From a virus (lineage: Duplodnaviria; Caudoviricetes): a stretch of DNA of 64,000 nucleotides. Below are positions 846 through 60,092 of this stretch, piece after piece (position 1 is the first letter of the stretch; each line of letters begins with the position of its first letter). The notes beneath the pieces were generated by a model that searched no databases, was not told where the DNA came from, and saw only the letters and a list, made by a program, of their open reading frames with translations. The position numbers and the translations under genes were made by a program. The stretch lies in IMG/VR virus record IMGVR_UViG_3300042973_000021, positions 1-64,000 of that record; one strand, 5' to 3'.

Positions 846-939
846 GTAACGATGAAACTTTCGAGGTCAAAAAAAGTTTCATCGTGTGATTGTGGTTTCA
901 TCGTTTACGAGTGCTGTAATTTCGGTCTTTTTCGGGCAT

Positions 940-4431: not shown

Positions 4432-4464
4432 GGCTATGTAGCCAAACCGCCTGTTTTTCCGGTC
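4432..4464 (-). promoter_or_regulatory. Phage-specific promoter-like motif, copy 1 (GACCGGAAAA-N7-GTTTGGCTACATAGCC)
   Basis: Same 10-bp and 16-bp boxes and same spacing at 33712-33744 and 33838-33870. Confidence 0.75.
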
Positions 4465-4535: not shown

Positions 4536-5495
4536 TTATTTCACGCGAATCCGCCATCCAACCTGGATGAGATTCACGTTCTTGATAAGCGAGCTGTTCA
4601 GCTTCTGGATCGCGGACACAGACGTGCCGTATTTCTTCGCGATGCCGGAGAGCGTGTCACCTCGCTGAACCGTGTAGTAGGTTGCCGTCGTCTTCTTGGC
4701 AGCAGATCCGAGCTTCTCGTTGACCTTCGCCTGCACGGCGCTGTAGTCGTATCCGGCTGCGGTCAGGCGGTTCTTACGGTCGGAGCCGTTGCCCCATTTC
4801 CCGGCGATAACCTCTGAAGCAATCTCATCAACGGACTTCTTCGCGGTTGTGGTCGTCGTGCTGGTGGACGCGGTTCCTTTGCCGTAGCCGTTGAATCCGC
4901 CGCTCCTGATCGTCGCCGGAAAGTCGATGTAGGAGTAGTCCATATCGACGTTCCCGCCGATACCGCTGACCTTGCCTTTGGACGAATACTGCCAGATTCC
5001 GTAAGCGCCGGAGTAGCTGCACTTGCCAGACCACTGCGCCACCCAGACGGTGAAACGCTTCTTCACGGCGTCCGATACCACGGAGTTCAGGCTGGAAAGC
5101 GAGGTGTAGAAACCAGCGTAAAAACCGCGGCTCTCAAGCTCCATGCAGAATGCCGTGATGAGGCTTGAGCAGAAATCCCGTCCCTTGGAAAGCTGCGACT
5201 TCTCCTCGATGTCGAAATAGACCGGATAATCGAGCTGCTTGCCGGAGAGAACCTTGGCGCAAGCCCGCGCTTCCTGCTTCGCTCCGGCGGCGGACGTGGC
5301 GTAGCTGTACCAGTACGCTCCGACGTGAAGCCCTACGGCCTTCGCCTTGCTGTAGTTGCTGTCGAAATACTTGTCCTTGTTTCCGTTTCCGTATCCGGCG
5401 CGGATGATCACGAAATCAATGCCGGATGATTTGACCTTGGCAAAGTCGATATTGTTTCCCTGCCAGACGGATACGTCGATTCCTTTGTATGCCAT
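4536..5495 (-). CDS. Endolysin: GH25 muramidase + Cpl-7-like repeat + LysM
   Basis: [15 protein letters not shown] and VDMD motifs, Thr-rich linker, [13 protein letters not shown] repeat, [13 protein letters not shown] LysM. Confidence 0.92.
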
Positions 5496-5911
5496 TACTG
5501 TTCCTCCTTGTCGTTTCTGTCGTGAAGCTGTTCCAGCACATCTTTGAGCTTGCCGGGTATCGGCAGCCCGAGATGCGCCGCGTTCTCGGTCAGGGACAAG
5601 CCCTCATTACTGATATAGAAAAAGATGATTGCTGTTCTCAGCACGCCCTCGTGGCCGAGTACGTGGATGTCGAGAATATTGGCGATGCCGACCAGAATGA
5701 AGATCAGCACTTTGCGGCAGATGCCCTTGAATCCAACCGCGCTCGAGAGCTTCTTGTCCGCGATGGCGCAGAGCACGCCGGTGATGTAGTCGCAGACCAC
5801 GAAGATGATCAGCGCGATCAGCAGTCCGTCACATCCTCCTAAGAAGTAGCCCAGCCATCCGCCGACTGCGGCGAAGATGAGCTGTATGGTGTTCCAGAAT
5901 TCCTTCATCAA
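5495..5911 (-). CDS. Phage holin (toxin secretion/phage lysis holin family)
   Basis: Transmembrane segments, DYITG and [10 protein letters not shown] motifs. Adjacent to the endolysin. Confidence 0.9.
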
Positions 5912-5994
5912 TATGTCCCTCCTTTGATTTTGGGTAAAAATAAAGGCCGCCAGCTTTGTGCTGACAGCCTTGGAAAACTGTGTGATCTATGAAG

Positions 5995-23337: not shown

Positions 23338-23380
23338 TGTCTTGTCCTCCGTTTGCTCTGGTTTTCCCTTTCGGTGTGTA

Positions 23381-23414
23381 CATATATCACTCTGATCAGC
23401 TTTGATAGCAAGTC
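23381..23414 (-). promoter_or_regulatory. Repeated promoter/operator motif (CTTGCTA-N-AGAGTGATATAT)
   Basis: Related copies at 23983-24034, 25261-25312 and 3789-3823. Confidence 0.65.
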
Positions 23415-23473
23415 ATTTCGAGGAATATATGTGACAATTTTTCGGGTTAATCCGGGAGGCCGGATTGTGTAGT

Positions 23474-23941: not shown

Positions 23942-23982
23942 CGTGTGTTCCTCCTGATTTTCGCTTGTTTGCTTGGTTTTCT

Positions 23983-24034
23983 GTGCCTTTCGGCATGTGT
24001 ATATATCACTCTGTTCGGCACATATAGCAAGTCA
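23983..24034 (-). promoter_or_regulatory. Repeated promoter/operator motif
   Basis: Minus strand ACTTGCTATATGTGCCGAACAGAGTGATATATACACATGCCGAAAGGCAC. Confidence 0.65.
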
Positions 24035-24072
24035 ATTTGGCCAGATAAATTGATAAATATCTGTGTCCAGAA

Positions 24073-25218: not shown

Positions 25219-25260
25219 GTGTTTTACCTCCGTTTAATGTGGTTTTCTGCCGTAGGTCCT

Positions 25261-25312
25261 GTGCCTTTCGGCATGTCTATACATCACTCTGAACGGCTGT
25301 AATAGCAAGCGA
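25261..25312 (-). promoter_or_regulatory. Repeated promoter/operator motif
   Basis: Minus strand GCTTGCTATTACAGCCGTTCAGAGTGATGTATAGACATGCCGAAAGGCAC. Confidence 0.65.
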
Positions 25313-25384
25313 ATAAGCGATATTTCTCAGGTAGAAATTCTTCCGATTATGCGGGCTTAAAACTGTGCTTAGTACACAAAGGAA

Positions 25385-32554: not shown

Positions 32555-33313
32555 TTAATCCTCCCTGAACAGGACGTATTCACGGCCCTGGTATTCTTCT
32601 TTCAGCTTTCCCTTGATATATGGCTTCACATATGAAACGCGGCCATCTCTGTAATGGCGGTAATGACCTCGAACGCCCCATGCCGGACAATGCCATTCGG
32701 TAAAATTTCTGTGGTTGACCTGAACCTTAGAAATATCTCCTTTGAAATGTGAGATACGGACCTTTCCCGGTTTCGTGAACGGCGCGGCAAGCGGCAGATT
32801 GCTTCTGATGCCTTTCCTGTATTCCTTACGTTCGTTCAGCTCTATCGGTCTAAAGTGAAGCAGATACTGAATTGCAAAGAATGAAAGATATACGCAGTCC
32901 TCATGGTCAGAAAGCTCATTATCTCCGTGTGCCGCAAGATACTCCGGCAATACAGCTCTTGCACCTTCCACCGTGCCGCTGGCTCCAATCCATTCATAGG
33001 TTTCCATGAAAAACATCGCCTTTCTGCCAAGCGTTGTGAAACAGATGCCCGCAAAGGCGCGGGAAGAATAAACTTTTCTTCCGTCCAGCGCTGGTGCAGG
33101 TACTTTCTCCGGATCGATGCCTTCCTCAAAAATCAACTCGCAATGTCCCTTATCATCTCTGCACTCCAGCATGAATTTCTCCAGTGCCGGATTATCGAGG
33201 AGTCTTTGCCGCTCAGAATCCTTGAGCTGTAATCCCAAGTCTGCTAAAGACTGAAGCTGTGATTCTGTAACAGCAATCCAGTTTGTGCGGATTTTCTCGT
33301 CGCTTTCTGTCAT
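32555..33313 (-). CDS. Hypothetical protein with C-terminal VRGHYR motif
   Basis: 252 aa, coupled to neighbours, WGVRGHYRHYRDGRVSYVKPYIKG. Confidence 0.7.
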   Translation of the reverse strand: MTESDEKIRTNWIAVTESQLQSLADLGLQLKDSERQRLLDNPALEKFMLECRDDKGHCELIFEEGIDPEKVPAPALDGRKVYSSRAFAGICFTTLGRKAMFFMETYEWIGASGTVEGARAVLPEYLAAHGDNELSDHEDCVYLSFFAIQYLLHFRPIELNERKEYRKGIRSNLPLAAPFTKPGKVRISHFKGDISKVQVNHRNFTEWHCPAWGVRGHYRHYRDGRVSYVKPYIKGKLKEEYQGREYVLFRED

Positions 33314-33660
33314 GCCCGCACCTCCTCACACGCTTCCGTGAAATAACGGATTGTCATCCTGCGCTGCCTTGCTCTGTCGATCTCCGTCTTCATGCCAGAG
33401 GATACCCGGCTGCCAAACACCCACAGCTCGTCGCATTTCCCGAGGAAGATCAGATCCATAAAGAGCGCAAGCTCTCGTTCACTGTCCTCCTTCATGTATT
33501 GCGGCAGCATCAGATGCGGCGTGAGCGGTATTGCTCCCTCATCTACTGCGAAGCGGCTGTACCTTCTCGCATCCTGAGTGTTCTTATCTGTATCGCCGGA
33601 ATATGGCGAGCAGACATAAACGAGCGGACGGTACTGCTTCTTCTGATTTGTGTTAGCCAT
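33310..33660 (-). CDS. DUF4406-like (nucleoside deoxyribosyltransferase-fold) protein
   Basis: VYVCSPYSGD..PH..CDELWVFG..SSGMKTEI motif. AAGGAG RBS before ATG 33660. Confidence 0.75.
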   Translation of the reverse strand: MANTNQKKQYRPLVYVCSPYSGDTDKNTQDARRYSRFAVDEGAIPLTPHLMLPQYMKEDSERELALFMDLIFLGKCDELWVFGSRVSSGMKTEIDRARQRRMTIRYFTEACEEVRA

Positions 33661-33711
33661 CGTCACTAACTCCTTTCGTTTATTTGTGAAAGGCTTTTCA
33701 TCCCTTCCGAT

Positions 33712-33744
33712 GGCTATGTAGCCAAACCGGTCATTTTTCCGGTC
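33712..33744 (-). promoter_or_regulatory. Phage-specific promoter-like motif, copy 2
   Basis: GACCGGAAAA-ATGACCG-GTTTGGCTACATAGCC on the minus strand. Confidence 0.75.
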
Positions 33745-33837
33745 CCGGCAAAGAAATATTTCAAAACGCGCAAAAAGACCTGCATCGCTGCCTTTGAATA
33801 AGGAAGAAATGCAGGTCTTAAAAATTTTTTTGGATTT

Positions 33838-33870
33838 GACCGGAAAATCCGGGTGTTTGGCTACATAGCC
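33838..33870 (+). promoter_or_regulatory. Phage-specific promoter-like motif, copy 3
   Basis: GACCGGAAAA-TCCGGGT-GTTTGGCTACATAGCC, followed by an AAAGGAGG RBS. Confidence 0.75.
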
Positions 33871-33892
33871 GGTGAAAGGAGGACAGACAGCC

Positions 33893-34111
33893 ATGCAGGA
33901 AACAAGAGAAATGAAATCACCGGCCGAAAAGCGTGAGCTGATCGATACGCTGATCGCCATCAGCGTTGTGTCAAGACGGCTGGCGAGAAAACTCGAAATG
34001 CAGATGTTAAAGGAGGACAAACATGGGCAAGATGAGCGAACTGTCGATGACGCTCGACGCGCTGATCGACACAGGGCAGAAGTTAACAGAATGCGGAGAA
34101 GAGCTGATTAA
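33893..34111 (+). CDS. Small hypothetical protein
   Basis: Strong RBS, LIAISVVSRRLARKL helix. The 3' part overlaps the next gene. Confidence 0.55.
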   Translation: MQETREMKSPAEKRELIDTLIAISVVSRRLARKLEMQMLKEDKHGQDERTVDDARRADRHRAEVNRMRRRAD

Positions 34112-34391
34112 GACGGCAAGGGAAATCCGGGCTGCGTTCTCGGAGCCGGAACCCGCAGCAGAGCCGAAGGCCACTGCTCCGACGCAGGAAGAAGCTACCG
34201 CCACACCGGAGAAGGAGCCTGAGAAAACCTATACCAAAGAGGAAGTGCGAAAACTCCTCGCAGAGAAGTCGGTGGCAGGCTTCCGGGAACAGGCAAAGGC
34301 TCTGGTGAAGAAATACGGCGGAGGGAGTCTGACGGACGTCGATCCGGCGAAGTATCCCGACCTCGTCAAGGAAGCGGAGGCACTGCAATGA
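34023..34391 (+). CDS. Conserved phage replication-region protein
   Basis: Pro/Glu linker, then EEVRKLLAEKS..LVKKYG..LTDVDPAKY. Usual neighbour of DUF2800. Confidence 0.75.
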   Translation: MGKMSELSMTLDALIDTGQKLTECGEELIKTAREIRAAFSEPEPAAEPKATAPTQEEATATPEKEPEKTYTKEEVRKLLAEKSVAGFREQAKALVKKYGGGSLTDVDPAKYPDLVKEAEALQ

Positions 34392-35509
34392 GCAAGCACG
34401 CACTGCTCTCCGCGTCATCGTGCCACCGATGGCTTCAGTGTCCGCCGAGCGCAAAGAGATGCGCCAGTGTTCCAGACCAGTCAAGCGAATACGCCAGACA
34501 GGGAACCGCCGCACATGAGCTCTGCCAGTACAAGGTAGAACACGCACTCGGCAGAAACGCGCGAGACCCGACTGAGGATCTGGATTATTTCGACGAGGAG
34601 ATGGACCGGTGTTCCGATCAGTACTGCTCTTATGTAACGGAGCAGGTCGAGGAAGCAAAGAAACACTGCGCTGATCCGGCAGTATTCGTAGAACAGCGAC
34701 TGGATTTCTCTCGCTGGGTGCCGGAAGGCTTCGGAACCGGCGACTGCGTGATCGCCGCGGATGAGCTTCTCCAGATCATCGATTACAAGCATGGTCTTGG
34801 AATACTCGTGAACGCCGAAATGAATCCGCAGATGATGTGTTACGCACTGGGAGCTTTGGAAATGTTCGATGGAATCTACGACATCGAGAATATTCGGATG
34901 ACCATCTTCCAGCCAAGGCGCGACAACATCAGCACCTTCGAGATTTCCAAGGCGGATCTTCTCAAATGGGCAGACGAGGTACTCGCTCCCGCCGCAAGGC
35001 TCGCCTACAAAGGTGAGGGAGAATACAAGGCCGGAGACCACTGCCAGTTCTGCGCCGTGAAAGCGACCTGCCGGAAACGCGCCGAGTACAATCTGGAGCT
35101 CGCGAAGTACGACTTCCAGATGCCGCCGGACTTATCCGACGATGAGATCGACATGGTTCTTATGAAGGCGGATGAGCTCGTATCCTGGGCGAACGACATT
35201 AAGGAATACGCCCTGCAGCAGGCTCTCTCCGGGACGGAATATCCTGATTTCAAAGTAGTAGCGGGACGCTCCGTCACGAAATATACCGATGAAGATGCTG
35301 TTGCAGAAACCGTAAAGAAGCTGGGCTATGAGCCCTACGAGCGAAAGCTCCTCGGCATCACGGCAATGAAATCTCTTCTCGGCAAGAAGCAGTTTGAAGA
35401 GGCTCTCGGTAGCCTGACTTACAAGCCACCGGGAAAACCGACACTCGTACCAAAGTCGGACAAGCGTCCGGCGATGAATACAGCAAAAACAGATTTTGAA
35501 AATGTTTAA
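34388..35509 (+). CDS. DUF2800 family (Cas4-like PD-(D/E)xK exonuclease)
   Basis: HALLSAS..RW..CPPS, GTAAHE, FGTGD..IIDYKHG, Q..YALG and HCQFC..C motifs. Confidence 0.85.
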   Translation: MSKHALLSASSCHRWLQCPPSAKRCASVPDQSSEYARQGTAAHELCQYKVEHALGRNARDPTEDLDYFDEEMDRCSDQYCSYVTEQVEEAKKHCADPAVFVEQRLDFSRWVPEGFGTGDCVIAADELLQIIDYKHGLGILVNAEMNPQMMCYALGALEMFDGIYDIENIRMTIFQPRRDNISTFEISKADLLKWADEVLAPAARLAYKGEGEYKAGDHCQFCAVKATCRKRAEYNLELAKYDFQMPPDLSDDEIDMVLMKADELVSWANDIKEYALQQALSGTEYPDFKVVAGRSVTKYTDEDAVAETVKKLGYEPYERKLLGITAMKSLLGKKQFEEALGSLTYKPPGKPTLVPKSDKRPAMNTAKTDFENV

Positions 35510-35522
35510 GGAGGACAAGATT

Positions 35523-36092
35523 ATGTCAAAGAAGTTTATCAATCCCACGAAGGTTATCACCGGCCCGCAGACCAGATGGAGCTATGCAAACGTCTGGGAC
35601 GCGAAATCCATCAACGGCGGCACGCCGAAATTCAGCGTCAGCCTCATCATCCCGAAGTCTGACACGGTGACCGTGAACAAGATCAAGGCAGCGATTCAGG
35701 CAGCTTACGAGGAAGGCGAGTCGAAGCTCAAGGGCAATTCCAGAAGCGTTCCTCCGCTTTCCGCAATCAAGACGCCTCTCCGTGATGGTGACGCTGAGCG
35801 TCCGGATGATCCGGCCTACGCAAACAGCTACTTCATCAACGCCAACAGCACCACGGCTCCCGGCATCGTGGATGCCGACCGCAATCCGATTCTGGAACGC
35901 AGCGAAGTCTACTCCGGCGTTTACGGCAGAACGTCCATCAATCTGTACGCTTTCAACACGAACGGCAACAAGGGTATCGCCTGCGGCCTGAACAATCTGC
36001 AGAAGATCCGCGATGGCGAACCGCTCGGAAGCAGAAGCCGCGCCGAGGACGACTTCGACATTGACGATGATGACGACGATTTTCTGAACTGA
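35523..36092 (+). CDS. DUF2815 family ssDNA-binding protein (T7 gp2.5-like)
   Basis: PLRDGD, YSGVYGR and GLNNLQKIRDGEPL motifs, acidic tail ending FLN. Confidence 0.88.
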   Translation: MSKKFINPTKVITGPQTRWSYANVWDAKSINGGTPKFSVSLIIPKSDTVTVNKIKAAIQAAYEEGESKLKGNSRSVPPLSAIKTPLRDGDAERPDDPAYANSYFINANSTTAPGIVDADRNPILERSEVYSGVYGRTSINLYAFNTNGNKGIACGLNNLQKIRDGEPLGSRSRAEDDFDIDDDDDDFLN

Positions 36093-36171
36093 TTGCAAAT
36101 AACTGAAAACCATAGTGGGCGGCGGCTGTCCCGCCGCTGTCCACGGCAATTTAAGAAAAGAGGTATACATC

Positions 36172-36369
36172 ATGGAACTTGCAAACAATGTAGTAGCTTT
36201 GATCGCCAACAGCTTATGCTGCGTCCTTATCCTGGCATTTATCGTCGGAGTGGTTCAGGGCATCCGCTTCATGCTTCAGGCAAAGAATCAGGACAAGGAA
36301 GAATATGAGCTCAAGAAGGAAAAGGAACAGCTCGATCTGGAAGAACAGAAAGCGCGTTTGAAAAACTGA
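36172..36369 (+). CDS. Small single-TM membrane protein
   Basis: 65 aa, hydrophobic N-terminus and charged coiled tail, AGAGG RBS. Confidence 0.6.
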   Translation: MELANNVVALIANSLCCVLILAFIVGVVQGIRFMLQAKNQDKEEYELKKEKEQLDLEEQKARLKN

Positions 36370-36437
36370 ATAAAACAATCGAAACGGCGGGCGGCAGGGT
36401 TCTCTCTGCCGCCTTTGCCAATTCAGGAGGAATTTGA

Positions 36438-38426
36438 ATGCATGAGTTAGATATAGATTTGGAGACGTACAGCAGCAACGACCTGTCAAAATGCGGCGTT
36501 TATAAATATTCCGAAGCCGATGACTTTGAGATTCTGCTGTTCGGATATTCTGCTGACGGCGGCGAAGTCCAAGTAATTGATCTGGCCTCGGGAGAATCCA
36601 TCCCGGATGAAATAATAGATGCCCTGACCGATGACGATGTAATCAAATGGGCGCATAACAGCCAGTTCGAGAGAATCTGCCTTTCCCGGTACCTGCGCGA
36701 CCGCGGCATCAGTCTTGATCCGTTCCACGACAATCACCCGCTGTCGACTGAGTGTGCAAAATATCTGAACCCGGAAAGCTGGCGCTGTTCCATGATTTGG
36801 GGAGCATATCTCGGGCTGCCATTATCGCTTGATAAAGTCGGCAGTGTCCTGAAACTGGAGCAGAGAAAAATGTCAGAAGGCAAAGCTCTGATACGGTACT
36901 TCTGTGTCCCATGCGCTCCCACGAAATCAAACGGCGGACGCACAAGGAATCTCCCGGCAGATGATCCGGGAAAATGGTCGGTTTTCAAAGCGTACAACAA
37001 GCGTGATGTTGAGGTGGAAATAAAGATAAAAGCCCGGCTGCAAGGATTCCCTGTACCGGACTTTGTATGGGATGAATATCACATTGATCAGGAGATCAAC
37101 GACAGAGGCATTCTGATTGATATGGAGCTTGTGGACAGCGCAATTGCAATGGACGACCGCTCCAAGCAGGAGCTGTCGGATAAAATGAAGGAGCTGACGC
37201 ATCTGGATAATCCGGGCAGCGTGCAGCAGATGAAGCAGTGGCTCGCTGACAACGGTATGGAGATGGAGAGTCTCGGCAAAAAGGAAGTCGCCGCTGCCAT
37301 CAAGACTGCTCCGCCAGAACTCGCTAATATTCTCACGCTACGCCAACAGCTCGCAAAATCCTCGGTCAAGAAATACCAGGCGATGAAAACGGCGGTCTGC
37401 AAGGATGGCCGGGCGCACGGGATGTTTCAATTTTACGGAGCGAACCGCAGCGGGCGCTGGGCTGGACGTATTATTCAATTGCAGAATTTGCCGCAGAATC
37501 ACATCCCGGATCTGGAACAAGCGAGAAAACTTGTGAAGACAGGCGACTACGAAATGGTGTCGATGCTGTATGGCGATGTGCCGGATACGCTATCCCAGCT
37601 CATCCGCACCGCCTTCATTCCTAAGCCGGGATACAAGTTCGTCGTCAGTGATTTCTCCGCCATCGAGGCGAGGGTGCTGTCCTATCTCGCAAATGAGAAG
37701 TGGCGTATCGACGTCTTTAACAACAACGGCGATATTTACTGCGCATCAGCCAGTGCAATGTTCGGTGTTCCGGTTGAAAAGCATGGGCAGAACGCACACC
37801 TGCGGCAGAAAGGCAAAATTGCGGAATTGGCTCTCGGTTACGGCGGCTCAGTCGGAGCGTTGAAGGCGATGGGCGCACTCGACATGGGACTTACTGAAGA
37901 CGAGCTTTATCCGCTTGTATCCTCATGGCGCGCTGCCAATCCGAACATCGTGCAGTTCTGGTGGGACGTCGACCGCTGCGTTACCGATACCGTTCAGAAG
38001 CATCTTCGCACAGAGACGCATGGTATTGTCTTCAGCTATAAGTCCGGCATGATATTTATCACACTTCCATCCGGCAGACGACTTTCCTACGTAAAACCGA
38101 GGATGGGGCTGAACCGATTCGGTTCGGAATCTGTCACTTACATGGGAATCAGCTCCACGAAGAAATGGGAACGAATCGAGAGCTACGGTCCGAAATTCGT
38201 GGAAAATATCGTGCAGGCGATCAGCCGAGACATTCTCGCCTACGCCATGAAGACACTCCGCTGCTGCGCCATCGTCGGACACGTCCACGATGAGCTGATT
38301 ATCGAGTGCGATCCGTGCGTATCACTTGATGCTGTCTGTGAGCAGATGGGCCGGACGCCGCCGTGGGTACCGGGACTCAAGCTGAATGCGGACGGGTATG
38401 AGTGCCAGTTTTATATGAAAAGCTGA
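36438..38426 (+). CDS. Family A DNA polymerase with 3'-5' exonuclease (phage type)
   Basis: DLETYS exo I, DFSAIEARV motif A, RQKGKIAELALGYGG motif B, HVHDE motif C. Confidence 0.93.
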   Translation: MHELDIDLETYSSNDLSKCGVYKYSEADDFEILLFGYSADGGEVQVIDLASGESIPDEIIDALTDDDVIKWAHNSQFERICLSRYLRDRGISLDPFHDNHPLSTECAKYLNPESWRCSMIWGAYLGLPLSLDKVGSVLKLEQRKMSEGKALIRYFCVPCAPTKSNGGRTRNLPADDPGKWSVFKAYNKRDVEVEIKIKARLQGFPVPDFVWDEYHIDQEINDRGILIDMELVDSAIAMDDRSKQELSDKMKELTHLDNPGSVQQMKQWLADNGMEMESLGKKEVAAAIKTAPPELANILTLRQQLAKSSVKKYQAMKTAVCKDGRAHGMFQFYGANRSGRWAGRIIQLQNLPQNHIPDLEQARKLVKTGDYEMVSMLYGDVPDTLSQLIRTAFIPKPGYKFVVSDFSAIEARVLSYLANEKWRIDVFNNNGDIYCASASAMFGVPVEKHGQNAHLRQKGKIAELALGYGGSVGALKAMGALDMGLTEDELYPLVSSWRAANPNIVQFWWDVDRCVTDTVQKHLRTETHGIVFSYKSGMIFITLPSGRRLSYVKPRMGLNRFGSESVTYMGISSTKKWERIESYGPKFVENIVQAISRDILAYAMKTLRCCAIVGHVHDELIIECDPCVSLDAVCEQMGRTPPWVPGLKLNADGYECQFYMKS

Positions 38427-53969: not shown

Positions 53970-54599
53970 CTACGACAGGCAGTTGAAGGCTGGCAGAGCC
54001 TCCGTCGTCCCGTCGTTCCTGATCGCGTTTTCAAGTACCGGGCTAATCAGCACCGGATTCAGATGATCCGCCTTCGTGCTGTCCAGATATTCATTCTCTA
54101 CGAGTGTTTTCGTCAGCACCTGCCGAACCTTCGTAATAGTGGAATCACTCCACGTGGCCACCCAGTCGTCCTGCTCCTGCAGCCGCATGAAGAATGTGTT
54201 CAGATCCACCCTGCCGAACGAGCTGTCGAGTTTCTGATATTTCTCTCCGATGACCGTCAGCATAAAGTCCCATACCAGACGGTACTGCCGCATCATGGCA
54301 TACAGACAGATCTGCTTTGCCACATCACTCGGCTGCGTCGCAATGGCCGTAACAAGCGAATCGTCCTCCATTGCTTCAAGCCTCCGGATGCAGGCAAGCG
54401 CCATCTTACGGACGGACTTTTCCGTCGGATACTGAAACAGATTCTCCGACACGATGTGTTCAACCACAGCATCCTTATCAAGCCCGTCGTTTACGAGCTT
54501 TGCCGTAGTACGCATTTCATAAAACAAAAACTGTTCCCGCGTAATCGCGGCATTATAAGGACTGGCTTCTTTGAGTGCCTTGTTTGTACTTTGCGGCAT
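53970..54599 (-). CDS. brxA: BREX protein BrxA (DUF1819)
   Basis: EQFLFYE, ENLFQY and WSDSTITK motifs. First gene of the BREX order. Confidence 0.9.
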   Translation of the reverse strand: MPQSTNKALKEASPYNAAITREQFLFYEMRTTAKLVNDGLDKDAVVEHIVSENLFQYPTEKSVRKMALACIRRLEAMEDDSLVTAIATQPSDVAKQICLYAMMRQYRLVWDFMLTVIGEKYQKLDSSFGRVDLNTFFMRLQEQDDWVATWSDSTITKVRQVLTKTLVENEYLDSTKADHLNPVLISPVLENAIRNDGTTEALPAFNCLS

Positions 54600-54843
54600 T
54601 CTTCTTTTCCTCCGGTTTATTGGCGGCTCCCTTTTCATCATCATCCGGAACCGTTTCTACAATTTCATTAATATTGCAGTTCAATGCTTCGCAGATCTTC
54701 AAAAGCACATCGGTCGTCAGGTTTTCGCCTTTGCCGAGCTTCGCAAGGGAAGCTGTGCTGATCCCACTTAATTCCCGCAAATCCTTCTTTGACATTTCCC
54801 GTTTTGCAAGTATTACCCATAAGGGTCTGTAACTGATACGCAT
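54553..54843 (-). CDS. XRE/Cro-like HTH regulator
   Basis: ISYRPLW..MSKKDL..GISTASLAKLGKGENLTTDVLLKICEAL. GGAGG RBS. Confidence 0.85.
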   Translation of the reverse strand: MRISYRPLWVILAKREMSKKDLRELSGISTASLAKLGKGENLTTDVLLKICEALNCNINEIVETVPDDDEKGAANKPEEKKNAAKYKQGTQRSQSL

Positions 54844-54859
54844 ACGCACCTCCATCAGT

Positions 54860-56575
54860 TTATTTCTCGTCATCCTCTGACGGCACTTCGCCCGACTCGT
54901 TTTCTGTCTTCTTAGCCCATGACCATCCGAACAGCTCTCCGCCATCGCTATGAAGTTCGATCACGCGGGTATCGTAGACTGTCTTTGCTGTATATTCCGT
55001 AAACGCCTTATGCTTATCGAACGATATGAAGACCTGCTTCCCGCTGTTCACGTAGAGCTGCATGATCTTATCAATCGGCAGGTCAGCTATGTTCTTGAAG
55101 ATCAGGGAGTCATGAACGATAAACGGAAGCTCCGTAGTCTTGAATACACTCAGGTCAAAAATGATGAGATTCTTATAATTTTCTCCTGTGCCAGAATTCC
55201 AGTCACAGCCGAATGTATATTTCGGATTTCCATTCTTTGCATCTGAGAATTTAATCTCAGGAGCATACTGTTTTCCATCGTATATAAAGTCGTTCATCCG
55301 GACCATTTCCTGATTGATTATGGTCTGAATGGTATCCAGCTGGCTCTTTCTGGCATCCTCCATGCGGGTCTTGGCGTCTTTAGTCTCATTGGCAAGTTTC
55401 TGGGATTCATCATATCCTTCATTCTGCGTTTTCAGGAAATTGATCCTGCTGCGCAGCCGGACCGTTTCATCCAGAAACTTCTTCGAGACATGTGTCGGAA
55501 CACCAAGCTTACGCTGTTCTTCCTCCAGCCGCTGCATTTCCTTCGTAGATTCAGCGATGAGAGCTTCCAGCCTCTGTACTTCTTCCGACATCTCATCCGT
55601 CAGGATGGTCTGCATCTTCTTATGGAAATGTTCGATGGTTTCGAGCTTTTCAATATCGGCGTCAGGGAAGAACTCCCGAAGGTCCTGAATATCGTCGGAT
55701 GTTGGCGTCAGGCCTTCCTCAAGGTTTGCCTTGACGGCATTCAGCTGCGATACGAGCCTTGTTCTGCGCCGCTTAAGGACAGTGATCTGTCCCTTGATTT
55801 CCGCTGCCTTATCAAGCTGAGCGGTATCCGCCTCCGCGAGAGAACTGTCTTCTTTATCAAGAAGCTCCTCCAGCTGCTTTTCGAGTTCTTCGATTTCCTT
55901 GGTATTGGCCTTGACCTGTTTCTTCGTCCTCGCAACGGTTACAATTTCTCCCAGATTGGTGGCGGTTATTCTGACGGTTTTGCGTTTGTTCTTTGCTTTG
56001 TAGAAATCCTCATACTCCTTCACAAGGTCATAAACGCCGTAGATCTGCTCCAGCGCCTTAATCGCATCCGCATCCGGCTCTTTGCCATATTGCAGCGGAA
56101 ACTCCTCGCTGTAATTATGCCTGCCGTAGATTCTCGCGAAGCGTCCTACCAGGCTGCGCCAGCTGCACTGCGCTGTCTGAATTTGATAGGAGGCAAAGAG
56201 ATGATCCTGAAAATCAGTCAGCGGCATCGGATCGCCGATCTCGTTATAATTCTCATCGCATATACTGACATGAGTAGGGTCCAGCGTGCTTCTGGAATAA
56301 TACTCGATACGCTCTCCAAACTTGAAAGCGAACTTGATGACGTGGTTTCCGACAAATTTGACTACGTTATTTTTTGTTTTCTCACTGTCCAGATAATCGC
56401 CGCCGCCAAAGCAGAAATCCACTGCCAGAAGAAAAGTGGATTTTCCGATGGAGTTTTCACCCTGCTTATCGCCAAGGACAGTGTTCAGACCCGGTCGGAA
56501 CCTAATCCGTCCTCTCGGGACACGCTGCCCGTTTATGGTTTCAGCGAACTGGTCGCATTCTATTTCATACAACAT
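54860..56575 (-). CDS. SMC-like ABC ATPase (DUF2326; ABC-three-component/Lamassu LmuB-like)
   Basis: NSIGKST Walker A, long coiled coil, SGTGE signature, FIVHDS Walker B. Confidence 0.85.
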   Translation of the reverse strand: MLYEIECDQFAETINGQRVPRGRIRFRPGLNTVLGDKQGENSIGKSTFLLAVDFCFGGGDYLDSEKTKNNVVKFVGNHVIKFAFKFGERIEYYSRSTLDPTHVSICDENYNEIGDPMPLTDFQDHLFASYQIQTAQCSWRSLVGRFARIYGRHNYSEEFPLQYGKEPDADAIKALEQIYGVYDLVKEYEDFYKAKNKRKTVRITATNLGEIVTVARTKKQVKANTKEIEELEKQLEELLDKEDSSLAEADTAQLDKAAEIKGQITVLKRRRTRLVSQLNAVKANLEEGLTPTSDDIQDLREFFPDADIEKLETIEHFHKKMQTILTDEMSEEVQRLEALIAESTKEMQRLEEEQRKLGVPTHVSKKFLDETVRLRSRINFLKTQNEGYDESQKLANETKDAKTRMEDARKSQLDTIQTIINQEMVRMNDFIYDGKQYAPEIKFSDAKNGNPKYTFGCDWNSGTGENYKNLIIFDLSVFKTTELPFIVHDSLIFKNIADLPIDKIMQLYVNSGKQVFISFDKHKAFTEYTAKTVYDTRVIELHSDGGELFGWSWAKKTENESGEVPSEDDEK

Positions 56576-56792
56576 AGCGCAGTACTTCCTCATTTTCGTC
56601 GTATTCAATCTTTCTAAGTGCATATAAGCAGTCGAGCACATCTATGAATTCATTTACGCCGTCCATCTTCTTTATCACGCGCCGGTACAGCTCATGCACG
56701 CTTAAAGGCTCTTTCCGCAGTTCCTTCAGCACGACAGGGAACTTGGAAAGTGTGCTCTCGTTATATGAGTAAAGCTTATTCGGCAATAACAT
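56565..56792 (-). CDS. ABC-three-component middle component (LmuC-like)
   Basis: 75 aa LPNKLYSYNES..LDCLYAL..I, coupled between effector and ATPase. Confidence 0.75.
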   Translation of the reverse strand: MLLPNKLYSYNESTLSKFPVVLKELRKEPLSVHELYRRVIKKMDGVNEFIDVLDCLYALRKIEYDENEEVLRYVV

Positions 56793-57912
56793 CGAATGCC
56801 TCACATTTCTGCGTGAAATATGCGATGACGATCTCGCAGTCACGCCATTTTTCATTTGTTGCGTCATACAGCCACTTCGTCATCTCATAAAAGATCTGGT
56901 CCTGACTGTATCCCTTATCTCGGAAACTCACATACATATACCGAACCTGCTGGCAGAACGGATTAAACCGCAGCTTGCCCTCACGCCCCATCTCCTGAAA
57001 GACCTCATGGACGTCATTGAAATAAACATTCACATCTGTCTTGATACGAAGATACAGTGCAAAATCGCTTATTTTCTGTTTCACAGGAACCGGATCGTAA
57101 TTCAGGTCAATATCTGTGGGAGGCGTGATGAAAGGGATCTTTTCTATTACGCGCCGGACGCCTTCCTGCACATGTTGATCGGCTCGAATTTCCTGATCTT
57201 CATGAGCATTGATTAGAGACTCCTTTATTTCCATCATCCGGGAAATATCATCAGGAGTCTTAAGAGCAGCGTACTTTGCCGCGCATTCCGGGCAAAGCGC
57301 GATTAGATTGGATGGCTCATTGGAAGAATTGCTCGGATCAATAACTGCGACGTCATAGATCAGCTCGGTATGTCCGTCACGGTATGTAAAAAGTGATTTC
57401 TGGCATCCGTCATTTGGGCATACACTTCCGGTTTCTGCAACGAGGCCTATACCGTATTTTTCTTTCAATGTTGCCATCTGAATGGCAGGGACACCGCCGC
57501 TTGTTGCTGCAAGGGTGGTGTCTTTTGTTTTTGGTGCAGCCGCATGGTCGATGATGTCCTTGAACCGAGCTGCTATGCATGAGCAGTAATTACTGCTGTC
57601 AATGTCAGGAAACCACGGCTTAAACGAATCAAAGAGATACTCAATCGTGTCATCGGAATCCGTCTGAATGTATTTAGCAAAATTCCCGGTATCGAGAGAG
57701 CCGGAAATCTTGGAGGCGAGTTCCGATATGTCATTCTGTCCGTAGTAGTAGGCCTTATAAGTCCGTGGCAGGGTTTCATCAACGGGATCGTCTTCAGATT
57801 CTGGCAAATAGATCTTTTCAAATAATTCTTTGGCAAAAACCTCAACTTTTCTGTTCCGCCGATACTTCGTCGAAAGCAGCTTCGCGAAGATTTCGAATTC
57901 AGTATCTGCCAA
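56776..57912 (-). CDS. ABC-three-component effector (N-terminal domain + degenerate HNH/Zn module + C-terminal domain; LmuA-like)
   Basis: TTG start after GGAGG. CPNDGC..NLIALCPEC module and C-terminal CEIVIAYFTQKCEAF. Confidence 0.75.
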   Translation of the reverse strand: MADTEFEIFAKLLSTKYRRNRKVEVFAKELFEKIYLPESEDDPVDETLPRTYKAYYYGQNDISELASKISGSLDTGNFAKYIQTDSDDTIEYLFDSFKPWFPDIDSSNYCSCIAARFKDIIDHAAAPKTKDTTLAATSGGVPAIQMATLKEKYGIGLVAETGSVCPNDGCQKSLFTYRDGHTELIYDVAVIDPSNSSNEPSNLIALCPECAAKYAALKTPDDISRMMEIKESLINAHEDQEIRADQHVQEGVRRVIEKIPFITPPTDIDLNYDPVPVKQKISDFALYLRIKTDVNVYFNDVHEVFQEMGREGKLRFNPFCQQVRYMYVSFRDKGYSQDQIFYEMTKWLYDATNEKWRDCEIVIAYFTQKCEAFDVIAE

Positions 57913-57937
57913 TAGAGATCCCTCCTTCCATGCGTAC

Positions 57938-57967
57938 ATGTACGGTCATGTACAGTCGTGTACTCTC
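57938..57967. repeat. Three tandem 10-bp imperfect repeats (putative operator)
   Basis: ATGTACGGTC / ATGTACAGTC / GTGTACTCTC. Confidence 0.65.
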
Positions 57968-58050
57968 GGGAGCGGTGAAAAATGCCGTTTCCCGTATACT
58001 CAAGATACAGGAAGGAGATGAACCGTCCGACATGAAACCGATGCTATTTA

Positions 58051-58079
58051 ATTTTACCACAGTTTCGCACGATGGTCAA
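58051..58079 (-). promoter_or_regulatory. SigA-type promoter of the defence operon
   Basis: TTGACC-17 bp-TAAAAT with extended -10 TG on the minus strand. Confidence 0.75.
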
Positions 58080-58139
58080 TCTTAAATTCGTCATCGCAAA
58101 TTATTTTACAGCGATGCAACAATTTATTCATTTCCTGTA

Positions 58140-58370
58140 ACGCGTCCCGAGCACGACGTTAAAAGGCTCTCCTGAACCTGACTCACCTTCTTCGTGGCCA
58201 CGAGGTGTGTTCGTAGTCAGGCGATGGAAAGACAAATGAATAGAGTGCCAGCTTACGAACGGCTGGTCACCGAAATGAGGCGGAGCAATCCGCATGAGGT
58301 GACCGACGATGTCTAACACAACTGGCAGCCATATGGGTGGTCTCCGCCTCGGTTTGAAAACCGAAAGGAG
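58140..58370 (+). ncRNA. Candidate structured RNA leader
   Basis: Multiple exact helices, two potential pseudoknots and a GCAA tetraloop upstream of the sigma-like gene. Family not identified. Confidence 0.5.
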
Positions 58371-58379
58371 ATCGCTTAT

Positions 58380-59033
58380 ATGGCAATCAAAGACAACAAC
58401 TGGAAATCTTACAATGACGCGCCGCTGAAGGATGGCGAGGTTCTCGTACCTCAGCTGGTAAGCAAGGAGTACGCAATGGGCCTCAAGGCCAATATGTCGA
58501 ACCTGAGAACGTGGGAAAAAAGCGGCATCAGTTATCTGGTGATGTTCATCCCGGTGCCAAAAGATCAGGAGAAGCAGGCATGGTCTATCTTCAATGTTGA
58601 GGTGAACGAACTTCTCGATGAGAAGCTCGGGCCGAACAGATTCAGCCGTTGCATGGTCCCGCAGCCGGATGGCAGCAAGAATCCCTGCCCGAAGAAAAAT
58701 GGCAATAATCATGAATGCTGTGCCAACTGCCCGTTCCGTAATATTTACGAGAAGGAAGATCGCAGCATGGTGTACTGGAGTCAGCTTGAGGAAACCGAAT
58801 ATGCTGGAGGCGTTGAATCTCACGCCGATGATGATTATAAGGTCGAGGCCCTTCTGGAAGACCTGATCAACGAACTTGAACAAAAGAATCCGAAGCTCGC
58901 ACGTATCGTCACTCTCGGTTACGCCGGGTACAGCAAGGCAGAAATCTTCGAAATGATCGGCGTTCAGAAGACGCAGGGATATGACCTGTTCAAAGAAGCC
59001 GAACGTCTGACGAAGGAGTTCCTGTTCGACTAA
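58380..59033 (+). CDS. Sigma-70 region 4-like phage transcription factor with Cys-rich insert
   Basis: RC..CP..CCANCP Zn motif and C-terminal HTH (GYSKAEIFEMIGVQKTQGYD). AAGGAG RBS. Confidence 0.7.
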   Translation: MAIKDNNWKSYNDAPLKDGEVLVPQLVSKEYAMGLKANMSNLRTWEKSGISYLVMFIPVPKDQEKQAWSIFNVEVNELLDEKLGPNRFSRCMVPQPDGSKNPCPKKNGNNHECCANCPFRNIYEKEDRSMVYWSQLEETEYAGGVESHADDDYKVEALLEDLINELEQKNPKLARIVTLGYAGYSKAEIFEMIGVQKTQGYDLFKEAERLTKEFLFD

Positions 59034-59063: not shown

Positions 59064-59112
59064 GGCCGGATGCCTGACGCTGCGAAAGCGGCTGACGGTG
59101 TCCGGCCTTTTC
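59064..59112 (+). terminator. Terminator after the sigma-like gene
   Basis: GGCCGGA/TCCGGCC stem followed by TTTT. Confidence 0.6.
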
Positions 59113-59311
59113 TGTACCCGTACCCATAAACGATAGGCATACAATCACACGGTAAAAGGCTATCGTGTGATTATGGTTTCATTTCGCTTTCCTGACGCTC
59201 CGGACGTAAAAAGAGCAGCGGCTCAGACACATTCAATCTGAATACCGCTGCCGCTAAAAACCGCAGAAACGCTTGATTTGTCGGTGTTTTTCACATATAT
59301 GCTATCGCTTG

Positions 59312-59365
59312 ATTGTATCAAAATCGCGAGTCTTAGGTTCTGCAATATCTTTTTCAGTGTTTCTG
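59312..59365. other. Right attachment junction of inner prophage
   Basis: Arm attgtatcaaaatcgcgagtctta (59312-59335), core TTC (59338-59340), then LSR coding sequence resumes. Confidence 0.9.
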
Positions 59366-60092
59366 GTCTCCATTTGGCTTTGCCTGCCGCTGTAAGAATA
59401 CCGTCTGTTTCCAGCCCTCTTGCTATCTGTAAAAGGCTTGCTCCCTCAAGGTACTCTCTGTAAATCCGTTTAACAACCTCAGCACCCTTTGGTTCAATCA
59501 CTAGCTGCTTATTTTCATCCTTGGTGTATCCAAGGAAACGCTTGTGGTTGACCTGTACTTCACCTTGTTGATAGCGATACTGAATACCTAGCTTAACGTT
59601 CTGGCTTAAGGATTGGCTTTCTTGTTGGGCAAGGGATGCCATAATGGTCAGCAAGATTTCCCCCTTGGAATCCATGGTGTTGATATTCTCTTTCTCGAAG
59701 AACACAGCAACGTTTTTATCCTTTAATTGACGGATGTATTTAAGGCAGTCCAACGTGTTTCTAGCGAATCGGCTGATGGATTTTGTGATAATCATATCAA
59801 TATTGCCCGCCATACACTCTTCAATCATGCGGTTGAATTCATCACGCTTTTTGGTATTTGTACCTGTGATACCGTCATCCGCAAAAATTCCTGCCAATTC
59901 CCATTCCTTGTTCTTCTTAATATAATTTGTATAATGTTCAATCTGAATGTCATAGCTTGAAGCTTGCTCCTCACTATCCGTTGAAACACGACAGTAAGCA
60001 GCCACTCGTATTTTTGATTTGCTTTCACTATTTTTATTATTTCCAACCCGTTTAATTGCCGGAATCACTGTTACATTCCTACTTACCGCCAC
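59341..60092 (-). pseudogene. 5' half of outer-prophage large serine recombinase
   Basis: YCRVST catalytic domain through [12 protein letters not shown]. Homology stops at the att core. Confidence 0.95.

What the first reader, a model, noticed from the sequence alone, without database searches (positions are those of the whole stretch)
54553..59033. No CI repressor: a face-to-face promoter switch links the Lamassu-like module to the phage sigma-like factor
Seen: no CI/LexA-type (HTH + S24 peptidase) or ImmA gene is recognisable in the 58.5 kb. Where an immunity region is expected there is a strong leftward promoter (58051-58079). Facing it is a rightward TATACT (57995-58000) that lacks a -35 but is preceded by three phased 10-bp repeats (57938-57967), an activator or operator-like layout. 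The first leftward gene is the ABC-3C effector, whose HNH-like module lacks obvious catalytic His residues and which has an extra ~130-aa N-terminal domain. Hypothesis: the SMC-like sensor has been co-opted, or doubles, as the lysis-lysogeny sensor, with the effector binding the repeats and controlling the sigma-like gene in response to DNA ends or foreign DNA.
Basis: inference. Interest (0 to 1): 0.72.

Follow-up and report, generated by a model that had tools for sequence, protein, structure and literature searches.

The report
Conserved phage switch beside dead-nuclease Lamassu
A gut prophage puts an SMC-type (Lamassu-like) DNA sensor with an inactive nuclease, plus a small repressor-like protein, where phages normally keep their lysogeny repressor, behind a conserved pair of facing promoters with three co-evolving 10-bp repeats; whether the sensor takes part in the lysis-lysogeny decision is untested.

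Summary
The leftward promoter (58079-58051), the three 10-bp-phased GTACA repeats (57939-57968) and the opposite-strand TATACT (57995-58000) recur in about 55 related loci. The -10-like hexamer sits 29-34 nt from the first repeat core in 22 of 34 non-redundant loci (P about 1e-15). The repeat core changes from clade to clade (at least 13 forms).

The module is a type II Lamassu/ABC-3C system:
- an LmuA-like effector whose HNH fold has lost its catalytic His residues;
- a DUF2326 ATPase;
- a YozG-like XRE protein.

Together with a divergent HTH (sigma region-4-like) gene it forms a cassette at the head of the lytic genes in Heliusvirales-type phages. No S24 or ImmA gene lies in the 58.5-kb prophage, and the XRE is its only HTH_3 protein.

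The XRE's HTH is nearly invariant, and TTGCGA-type boxes bracket the leftward promoter. The XRE therefore probably autoregulates the operon and does not read the repeats.

The repeat binder is unidentified. The effector N-domain matches no known fold, and covariation does not separate the candidates. The "Lamassu as induction sensor" idea stays open (about 0.2). The scan has not reported this on other DNA.

The parts
54553..54843 (-). XRE-family regulator (HTH_26, YozG/VanU-like, about 96 aa), last gene of the Lamassu-like module; its 3' end overlaps the brxA ORF
   Evidence: Pfam HTH_26 1.6e-19. NCBIfam VanU 1.5e-21, below cut-off. It is the only HTH_3 hit in the prophage. It follows the ATPase in nearly all related loci, and its HTH is almost invariant.
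54860..56575 (-). LmuB-like ABC/SMC ATPase (DUF2326 C-terminus). Walker A is GENSIGKST; Walker B is deviant (FIVHDS). The ORF is open up to 56641, but the likely start overlaps the middle-component stop.
   Evidence: Pfam DUF2326 3.5e-26. PADLOC LmuB and PDC-M68B. Translation. Overlap with the middle-component stop, ATGTTGTATGA.
56565..56813 (-).
   Evidence: tblastn finds this frame between effector and ATPase in about 58 loci at 38-77% identity. phiStag1 annotates a small ORF at the same place. Javan630 has MC2 there.
56776..57912 (-). LmuA-like effector, 378 aa. Residues 1-126 form a helical domain of unknown fold. Residues 143-246 form an HNH fold without catalytic His, with the Cys4 zinc site kept. 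Residues 254-378 form CTD11, the LmuA C-terminal domain.
   Evidence: Pfam CTD11 2.8e-28. PADLOC LmuA 3.3e-11 on the N-domain. AF2 model pLDDT 80. Cap5 Z 8.4 and LmuA 9nxx_A Z 6.2. No conserved His in the alignments.
57939..57968 (.). Three direct repeats, period 10, core GTAC(A). They lie 27-56 nt upstream of the effector start codon. They are centred about -46, -56 and -66 from the inferred rightward start.
   Evidence: Sequence. Unique in the window, 0.03 expected. Period 10 in 31 of 34 non-redundant relatives, with clade-specific cores.
57995..58000 (+). -10 box (TATACT) of the inferred rightward, activator-dependent promoter P_R; no -35, no TG
   Evidence: A hexamer matching TATAAT at 5 of 6 or better lies on this strand 29-34 nt from the first repeat core in 22 of 34 loci. 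That is 22 of 30 such hits inside a 6-nt window, binomial P 1.6e-15. The other strand shows no clustering.
58051..58079 (-). Leftward sigma-A-type promoter P_L (TTGACC-17-TG-TAAAAT) for the Lamassu-like/XRE operon, probably continuing into BREX and AbiA
   Evidence: Promoter scan 10 of 12 with TG. An equivalent strong promoter lies 92-141 nt (mostly 110-140 nt) upstream of the effector start in 27 of 34 relatives.
58062..58119 (.). Three TTGCGA/GCGATG-type boxes (58062-58074, 58090-58100, 58110-58119), about 20-28 bp apart. One lies in the P_L spacer and two lie upstream of its -35. They are the likely XRE operators.
   Evidence: The 6-mers TTTGCG, TTGCGA and GCGATG occur near the -35 in 11-16 of 27 loci, against 1 in the control segment. 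The only exact copy of the 11-mer in the window is here. Assigning the boxes to the XRE is inference.
58120..58379 (+). Long leader of the HTH gene. No terminator or other promoter-like site was detected on this strand. It holds a weak match to the DUF2800 RNA motif (58171-58332).
   Evidence: Promoter and terminator scan. Rfam RF02960 27.1 bits, E 0.024, gathering score 60.2. Conserved-looking leaders in relatives.
58380..59033 (+). 217-aa protein with a Cys-rich middle part and a C-terminal sigma region-4-like HTH. It is monocistronic here and is followed by a terminator at 59090-59107.
   Evidence: No Pfam hit at threshold. Sigma70_ECF E 0.2 on residues 151-197. 13 of 30 ORFs at the same position in relatives match Sigma70_r4_2. 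Terminator.
59223..60092 (-). 5' half (aa 1-251) of a serine-integrase gene of the neighbouring prophage B, interrupted near 59336 by this prophage. The 3' half is window 1-882.
   Evidence: BLASTP against a full-length 524-aa integrase: residues 1-251 here at 77% identity, residues 249-519 in window 1-882 at 61% identity.

Best explanation
This stretch is the control region and lysogen-expressed operon of a Heliusvirales-type prophage (about 826-59336).

The strong sigma-A promoter P_L drives a type II Lamassu/ABC-3C module: an LmuA-like effector with a catalytically dead HNH fold, an 82-aa middle component, and a DUF2326 ATPase. A small XRE protein follows, then BREX and AbiA. This resembles lambda's cI-rexAB operon with the gene order reversed.

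The XRE, whose HTH is almost invariant across the family, most likely binds the three TTGCGA-type boxes that bracket P_L. That would hold its own operon in check. Because the boxes lie at +55 to +115 of the rightward transcript, the XRE could also obstruct read-through toward the HTH gene.

Facing P_L, about 36 bp inside its leader, is a weak promoter P_R. It has a good -10, no -35, and three 10-bp-phased repeats at about -46, -56 and -66. P_R reads toward the sigma region-4-like HTH gene. In relatives with the canonical gene order it reads into the whole lytic gene set.

A cassette-encoded, fast-evolving protein that recognises the repeats would switch P_R on. From the same site, just before the effector's ribosome-binding site, it would block P_L transcripts. 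With convergent transcription this gives a two-state switch of the P2/186/Tn916 kind.

Shown: the elements, their conservation, their spacing and their covariation. Inferred: the transcription starts, which protein binds which site, and the direction of regulation.
For: - The cassette is conserved. Effector, middle component, ATPase and XRE occur in about 60 loci, with a divergent HTH ORF about 300-700 nt (mostly 400-500 nt) upstream.
- All share the same cis layout.
- Repeat period is 10 in 31 of 34 loci, with clade-specific cores.
- The -10-like hexamer is locked 29-34 nt from the repeats, P 1.6e-15, with no such signal on the other strand.
- It keeps its place whether or not a local hairpin exists.
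- The XRE HTH is invariant while the repeats vary, and TTGCGA boxes are enriched at P_L.
- No other promoter or terminator was detected between P_R and the HTH gene.
- Javan630 has a different ABC-3C family (CTD6/MC2) with the same layout. It faces an ORF with Sigma70_r4_2, an antirepressor, a primase and the whole lytic set.
- phiStag1 has the same cassette, and no other repressor is annotated in its record.
- This prophage has no S24 or ImmA gene and only one HTH_3 protein.
Against: - No transcription start, binding event or phenotype has been observed. Both promoters are consensus-plus-conservation calls.
- The XRE boxes overlap P_L, not the core of P_R as a classical lysogeny repressor's operators would.
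- Two prophages of this lineage sit in one genome with near-identical XRE recognition helices and similar boxes. This argues against the XRE as a phage-specific immunity repressor.
- In this prophage the HTH gene stands alone next to the attachment site, and the replication genes are elsewhere. The switch output here would have to act in trans.
- Only 4 of 50,697 deposited phage records carry this effector family, so the cassette is not universal in the lineage.
Confidence: 0.55

Rival explanations
1. The Lamassu-like SMC sensor is the prophage's induction sensor. In the lysogen the dead-nuclease effector is held by the ATPase and middle-component complex. DNA ends or damage release it. It oligomerises through its C-terminal domain, as LmuA does, and binds the three phased repeats. 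It then fires P_R (or lifts a block on it), so the HTH regulator and the lytic programme come on without RecA or S24 cleavage.
For: - The effector has lost its catalytic His residues across the whole family but keeps the zinc-binding HNH scaffold, a common DNA-binding surface.
- Its C-terminal domain resembles that of LmuA (Z 6.2). Published work shows that LmuA is released on sensing DNA ends and tetramerises through that domain (10.1101/2025.06.23.660979).
- ABC-3C modules of at least two families occupy the cI-like slot in this phage lineage with the same repeat and promoter layout.
- Repeat cores differ between two co-resident prophages whose XREs look interchangeable. The specificity of the switch therefore lies in the repeats and in a variable protein.
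- Repeat similarity tracks the effector N-domain and HNH domain (r 0.51-0.52) more than the HTH protein (r 0.27).
- A remnant locus without the HTH gene keeps the repeats.
- In the deletion variants the middle repeat is damaged too.
Against: - There is no direct evidence of binding.
- The N-terminal domain matches no DNA-binding fold.
- The ATPase correlates with the repeats as well as the effector does, and partial correlations are small (0.17-0.18).
- A C2-symmetric tetramer is not an obvious reader of direct repeats.
- Variants with the effector-ATPase deletion persist in three samples.
- The unknown N-domain could simply be a toxic effector, which would make this an ordinary abortive-infection system.
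Confidence: 0.2
2. Ordinary defence cargo with its own autoregulation. The repeats are an operator, or a translation-control site, for the Lamassu-like operon only. The facing -10 is incidental or makes a short antisense RNA that tunes the operon. Lysogeny is kept by some unrecognised repressor elsewhere, and the HTH gene is an unrelated early gene.
For: - Prophage defence genes commonly sit in the lysogen-expressed region. BREX and AbiA follow in the same operon.
- The repeats always lie about 20-26 nt before the effector start codon.
- A 93% homologue of the HTH protein faces a different three-gene ATPase operon that also has phased repeats before its ribosome-binding site but no obvious facing -10.
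- The cassette is absent from most deposited relatives.
Against: - The -10-like hexamer varies exactly as -10 boxes do (T1, A2 and T6 kept) and is locked to the repeats across clades.
- The HTH ORF stays divergent from the operon through several genome rearrangements.
- No other repressor candidate was found in this prophage or annotated in phiStag1.
Confidence: 0.2
3. The repeats act in the mRNA leader, for example as tandem binding sites for an RNA-binding protein or as part of an attenuator with the upstream hairpin and U-run, and not on DNA.
For: - They lie in the 5' UTR next to the Shine-Dalgarno sequence in every locus.
- Part of the TGTACA clade has a hairpin followed by ATTTTT upstream of them, with compensatory changes.
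Against: - A period of exactly 10 in 31 of 34 loci fits helical phasing on DNA.
- The hairpin is not conserved outside one sub-clade, and the TATACT motif shifts between loop and stem.
- The terminator scan finds nothing there in the window.
- The fixed distance to a -10 on the other strand has no RNA-level rationale.
Confidence: 0.05

Closest known systems
Type II Lamassu / ABC-3C systems (LmuA-LmuC-LmuB; DdmABC)
   Same: - Three genes in the order effector, small middle component, SMC-like ABC ATPase.
- The effector C-terminal domain is CTD11, with a fold like the LmuA CTD.
- The ATPase has an intact Walker A and a deviant Walker B, as reported for LmuB.
   Different: - The effector's enzymatic domain is an HNH fold without catalytic His residues, plus a 126-residue domain of unknown fold.
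- A conserved XRE gene is appended.
- The operon has a conserved leader with phased repeats and a facing promoter.
- The family was seen almost only in one phage lineage, at the head of the lytic genes.
Face-to-face promoter switches of coliphages P2 and 186 (Pe/Pc, pR/pL), with Cox/Apl tandem sites
   Same: - A lysogenic and a lytic promoter converge with overlapping transcripts.
- Tandem direct repeats phased by about one helical turn lie in the switch region.
The P2/186 details come from my own knowledge of the literature, not from a tool.
   Different: - The likely repressor boxes here overlap the lysogenic promoter, not the lytic one.
- The repeats lie upstream of the weak promoter, like activator sites.
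- No Cox/Apl or C/CI homologue is present.
Lambda immunity operon cI-rexA-rexB
   Same: A repressor gene is co-transcribed in the lysogen with an abortive-infection or defence module from the promoter next to the lytic early promoter (my own knowledge).
   Different: - The defence genes come first and the XRE last.
- The XRE has no cleavable or oligomerisation domain.
- The promoters converge rather than diverge.
Tn916 regulatory region (Orf9 XRE repressor versus Orf7 sigma-like and Orf8)
   Same: A small XRE protein and a sigma region-4-like protein are encoded on opposite strands, with convergent transcription proposed as part of the switch (my own knowledge).
   Different: There is no homology beyond the HTH classes, no SMC-type module in Tn916, and a different element type.

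Membership tests
Lamassu type II / ABC-3C | SMC-like ABC ATPase (LmuB) with Walker A and a C-terminal ATPase half | tested here: met
   DUF2326 3.5e-26. PADLOC LmuB 2.2e-9 and PDC-M68B 3.4e-14. Walker A GENSIGKST and Walker B-like FIVHDS.
Lamassu type II / ABC-3C | Small middle component between effector and ATPase | tested here: met
   82-aa ORF 56565-56813, conserved in about 58 loci. It matched no Pfam or NCBIfam model for middle components.
Lamassu type II / ABC-3C | Effector carrying an ABC-3C C-terminal domain (LmuA CTD) | tested here: met
   Pfam CTD11 2.8e-28. Model residues 254-378 align to LmuA 9nxx_A (Z 6.2, 119 residues, rmsd 3.8) and 9hqx_A (Z 5.1).
Lamassu type II / ABC-3C | Catalytically competent effector domain | tested here: not met
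   The fold is HNH (Cap5 Z 8.4, rmsd 3.6, 91 residues). The general-base His position is Val189, the CPxC-His position is Ala, and no His is conserved in 62 homologues. The N-domain could still be an unknown effector.
Lamassu type II / ABC-3C | Protects against phages or plasmids | not testable with these tools
   Needs a plaque or plasmid-loss assay.
CI/LexA-type repressor (HTH + S24) or ImmR/ImmA | S24 or M78 peptidase domain encoded in the prophage | tested here: not met
   The only S24 hit lies at 161333-161677, outside the prophage. There is no M78 hit.
P2/186-type face-to-face switch | Two convergent promoters with overlapping transcripts | tested here: inconclusive
   P_L scores 10 of 12 with TG. 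The P_R -10 is conserved and position-locked. No transcript data exist.
P2/186-type face-to-face switch | Repressor operators over the lytic promoter | tested here: not met
   The conserved TTGCGA boxes lie at P_L and 55-115 bp downstream of the P_R start, not over the P_R -10.
Sigma-70 family factor (for 58380-59033) | Region 2 (-10 recognition) and region 4 (-35 recognition) | tested here: inconclusive
   No Pfam hit at threshold. Region-4-like C-terminus only: Sigma70_ECF E 0.2 and TIGR02999 E 0.0097. 13 of 30 ORFs at the same position match Sigma70_r4_2. No region 2 was detected.
DUF2800 RNA motif (RF02960) | Score at or above the Rfam gathering threshold | tested here: inconclusive
   27.1 bits against a gathering score of 60.2, E 0.024, over the full model length at 58171-58332. 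No hit at gathering in 12 relatives.

The most novel reading that the evidence does not exclude
A phage lineage has turned a Lamassu-type SMC sensor into part of its lysis-lysogeny switch. The nuclease-dead LmuA-like protein, released and oligomerised when the ATPase complex meets DNA ends, reads the clade-specific phased repeats. It then flips a facing-promoter switch toward the lytic regulator. This would give RecA-independent, phage-specific induction.
Probability: 0.2. Interest if true: 0.9.

Novelty: new variant of a known kind. Interest (0 to 1): 0.62.

Why it matters
Heliusvirales-type prophages are among the most widespread temperate phages of the human gut and of streptococci, yet how they hold and leave lysogeny is undescribed. 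The defining paper mentions no repressor.

This work defines a conserved, testable control region:
- a strong operon promoter with likely XRE boxes;
- a facing activator-type promoter;
- three co-evolving repeats.

It also shows that an SMC-type immune sensor with a dead nuclease always sits in the repressor's place.

If the sensor feeds the switch, this would be a defence system recruited as a signal transducer, and a new induction route. If it does not, it is still a clear case of a defence operon wired into a phage switch. One genome carries two such cassettes with different repeat cores (GTACA and GGATAC), a natural pair for specificity-swap experiments.

Tried and rejected
Contexts came from the search for related loci instead.
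- A single-protein locus search found no relatives. The alignment-based searches worked.
- Rfam at gathering threshold found no DUF2800 RNA in 12 relatives. One call failed on size.
- A leader hairpin plus U-run as attenuator was rejected as a general feature. It exists in only one sub-clade, and the TATACT motif is not tied to it.
- The XRE as repeat binder was rejected, because its recognition helix is invariant while the cores vary.
- The HTH protein as repeat binder was weakened but not excluded. At least seven unlike recognition helices accompany the same TGTACA core, and its Mantel r is the lowest.
- Mantel and partial Mantel tests could not separate the effector from the ATPase.
- Fold searches with the N-domain (Foldseek and VIA-align wide) gave nothing above noise. 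The weak AlkA/MBD4/EndoIII rows at Z 2.8-3.4 are not evidence.
- The ESM Atlas gave no usable hit.
- A PDB profile search with the HTH-protein family gave nothing.
- No second cluster of XRE boxes or of GTACA repeats was found elsewhere in the window.
- Literature searches found no description of this architecture.

Full report
**Where the window lies.** The window is the first 64 kb of a 162-kb IMG/VR provirus record. Its genes match Ca. Heliusvirales phages and the streptococcal Javan and phiStag1 group.

One prophage, phage A, spans about 826-59336. Its two ends interrupt a serine-integrase gene of a second prophage of the same lineage, phage B. Window 59223-60092 encodes residues 1-251 of that integrase and window 1-882 encodes residues 249-519, judged against a full-length relative.

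Reading right to left, phage A holds:
- a lone 217-aa gene on the + strand (58380-59033);
- the leftward operon studied here, followed by type 1 BREX and an IS-disrupted AbiA gene;
- a rightward replication block (34023-38426);
- the primase, helicase, packaging, structural, lysis and recombinase genes.

**The observation.**
- P_L is TTGACC-17-TAAAAT with an upstream TG, at 58079-58051.
- TATACT lies at 57995-58000 on the other strand, with no -35 and no TG.
- Three 10-bp units with a GTAC core fill 57939-57968. The triple pattern is unique in the window, against 0.03 expected.
- Six-frame profile searches find no S24 or M78 peptidase in phage A. The only HTH_3 protein in it is the XRE at 54553-54843.
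- Scans of the remaining ORFs gave only an ArpU-like late regulator, an HNH protein, a small terminase, a methylase and a small HTH protein next to the recombinases.

**Corrections to the gene map.**
- The effector starts at TTG 57912, behind AAGGAGG. Profile hits begin there.
- A conserved 82-aa middle component lies at 56565-56813, overlapping both neighbours. The module is therefore a three-component (type II) Lamassu/ABC-3C system plus an XRE.
- The ATPase has an intact Walker A and a deviant Walker B, as published for LmuB (10.1101/2025.06.23.660979).

**The effector.** An AlphaFold model built on 62 homologues (pLDDT 80) has three parts.
- Residues 143-246 adopt the HNH fold: Cap5 Z 8.4, IscB Z 7.4, McrA Z 6.8. 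The general-base His is Val, the His after CPxC is Ala, and no His is conserved in the family. The four Cys and the structural Asn are kept.
- Residues 254-378 resemble the LmuA C-terminal domain: 9nxx_A Z 6.2, 9hqx_A Z 5.1.
- Residues 1-126, folded alone, give pLDDT 91 and pTM 0.84 but match nothing above noise.

The structure therefore neither supports nor excludes DNA binding by the N-terminus.

**Comparative evidence.** Alignment-driven searches returned 16 genome loci and 45 viral loci. All are tied to the same phage lineage.

Effector, middle component, ATPase and XRE are kept in that order. An ORF of about 130-300 aa (mostly 170-250 aa) lies divergently 300-700 nt (mostly 400-500 nt) upstream. 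It ends in a sigma region-4-type HTH, and 13 of 30 such ORFs match Sigma70_r4_2. The window's own copy reaches only E 0.2, so "sigma-like" should read "region-4-like HTH protein".

The cassette keeps this shape while its neighbours change. It faces the exonuclease, SSB and PolA block in many loci, the deoxyribosyltransferase and primase block in others, and a host rumA gene at a prophage end in L009 and L010.

In Javan630 a different ABC-3C family (CTD6 effector, MC2, AAA_23 ATPase) occupies the same slot. It faces a small ORF, a Sigma70_r4_2 ORF, an antirepressor, the primase and then every lytic gene on one strand. phiStag1 carries the CTD11 cassette, and its record annotates no other repressor. 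The slot is therefore the one where temperate phages keep their switch.

**The cis-elements.** Upstream of the effector every locus shows the same plan.

1. A strong promoter with an extended -10 lies 92-141 nt (mostly 110-140 nt) before the start codon.
2. Around its -35 the 6-mers TTTGCG, TTGCGA and GCGATG occur in 11-16 of 27 loci, against 1 in a control segment. In the window they form three boxes at 58062-58074, 58090-58100 and 58110-58119.
3. Three (sometimes four) direct repeats stand just before the Shine-Dalgarno sequence. The period is 10 in 31 of 34 non-redundant loci. The core differs by clade: GTACA, GGATAC, CGATACA, GGGACA, GGTTCAA, GGTTAAA, TTCCTCAA, ACGGTCT, GAGTTGG, GGGGCG, GACGCGCC, and TTCGGA in Javan630.
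4. On the opposite strand a hexamer such as TATACT, TATAAT, TACAAT, TAAAAT or TATATT lies 29-34 nt from the first core in 22 of 34 loci at 5 of 6 matches or better, and in 26 of 34 at 4 of 6. Of all such hexamers within 55 nt, 22 of 30 fall in that 6-nt window (binomial P 1.6e-15). The effector strand shows no clustering.

The loci are related, so that P value overstates independence. Even so, the pattern holds across about ten clades with unlike repeats. The hexamer keeps its place whether it sits in a hairpin loop, in a stem or in no hairpin. Its variation (T1, A2 and T6 kept) is that of a -10 box.

I therefore accept a rightward promoter P_R whose repeats centre near -46, -56 and -66, the geometry of an activator-dependent promoter. 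No other promoter-like site or terminator lies between it and the HTH gene.

**Who binds what.**

The XRE's helix-turn-helix is nearly identical in clades with unlike repeats. It therefore cannot read the repeats. The equally conserved TTGCGA boxes are its natural target (inference).

The repeat binder must be a variable protein.
- The HTH proteins that accompany one and the same TGTACA core carry at least seven unlike recognition helices.
- Their similarity correlates least with repeat similarity (Mantel r 0.27). The values for the effector N-domain, the HNH domain and the ATPase are 0.51-0.52.
- After removing the ATPase signal, only small residuals remain (0.17-0.18 for the effector domains, 0.11 for the HTH).
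- A remnant locus lacking the HTH gene keeps the repeats.
- The 93-99% relatives with an effector-ATPase deletion have a damaged middle repeat.

These hints lean toward a Lamassu-encoded binder but do not settle it.

**Two cassettes in one genome.** Phage B carries its own cassette at about 102.2-106.5 kb. It has GGATAC-type repeats, a TACAAT box, a clear region-4 ORF and an XRE whose recognition helix almost equals phage A's. Its boxes share TTGCGA. If the XRE were the immunity repressor, the two phages would be homoimmune. The phage-specific part of the switch is the repeats and their reader.

**Most likely working.** P_L is the lysogenic promoter. It makes the Lamassu-like proteins, the XRE and probably BREX and AbiA. 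The XRE limits P_L and sits in the path of P_R transcripts. A protein on the repeats would activate P_R and block P_L transcripts just before the effector gene, and convergent transcription would reinforce the choice. I put 0.55 on this architecture-level reading.

It has no direct support, and I give it 0.2. A plain defence operon with private autoregulation gets 0.2, and an RNA-level role for the repeats gets 0.05.

**Limits.** There are no expression or binding data. Promoter calls rest on consensus and conservation. Relatives were found through the effector, so sampling is biased toward this family.

Noticed in passing
window 4432-4446 (-), 33712-33726 (-), 33856-33870 (+): There are three exact copies of TTTGGCTACATAGCC inside a 45-nt element. 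Each lies 20-35 nt before the ribosome-binding site of an operon head: p148 and the recombinases; deoxyribosyltransferase and primase; small ORF, p122, exonuclease, SSB and PolA. They occur nowhere else in the 162-kb record. The pair at 33.7 kb is inverted around a strong terminator hairpin (33775-33819). The same inverted pair, 145 nt apart, occurs in two IMG/VR contigs (L139, L145). It is a possible trans target of the 217-aa HTH protein or a recombinase site.
   Followed up: partly
window 1-882 and 59223-60092: The prophage sits inside the third serine-integrase gene of a neighbouring prophage of the same lineage, split at the codons for the NEKYIGD motif. The two halves show 61% and 77% identity to one full-length relative.
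   Followed up: yes
own record 102248-106499 (outside the window): The neighbouring prophage carries its own effector, middle component, ATPase and XRE cassette with GGATAC-type repeats, a TACAAT box and a clear sigma region-4 ORF. It is a natural partner for specificity swaps.
   Followed up: partly
window 58171-58332 (+): There is a weak full-length match to the Rfam DUF2800 RNA motif (27 bits, E 0.024, gathering 60) in the leader of the HTH gene. Relatives show other conserved-looking leaders at the same place.
   Followed up: partly
window 23362-23417, 23981-24036, 25259-25314: There are three copies of a 56-nt element (75-82% alike) in intergenic gaps of the region before the terminase genes. 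Its function is unknown.
   Followed up: no
L022-L024 (IMG/VR contigs), about 5001-6550: Relatives 93-99% identical have effector residues 1-298 fused to the last 216 or so residues of the ATPase, so the middle component is lost. Their middle repeat is damaged, and a primase gene sits where the HTH gene is in the window.
   Followed up: partly
L005 3546-8654: A 93% homologue of the 217-aa protein faces a different three-gene operon (306 aa, 219 aa, AAA_13 ATPase), followed by hsdM. Four phased TTGTCG repeats stand before its ribosome-binding site. Phased repeats may be general to SMC/ABC three-gene operons in these phages.
   Followed up: partly
window 33663-34022: The ORF called 33310-34020 is too long. 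The DUF7768 gene most likely starts near 33662. A small conserved ORF starting at 33893 precedes p122, leaving a 230-nt divergent control region.
   Followed up: partly
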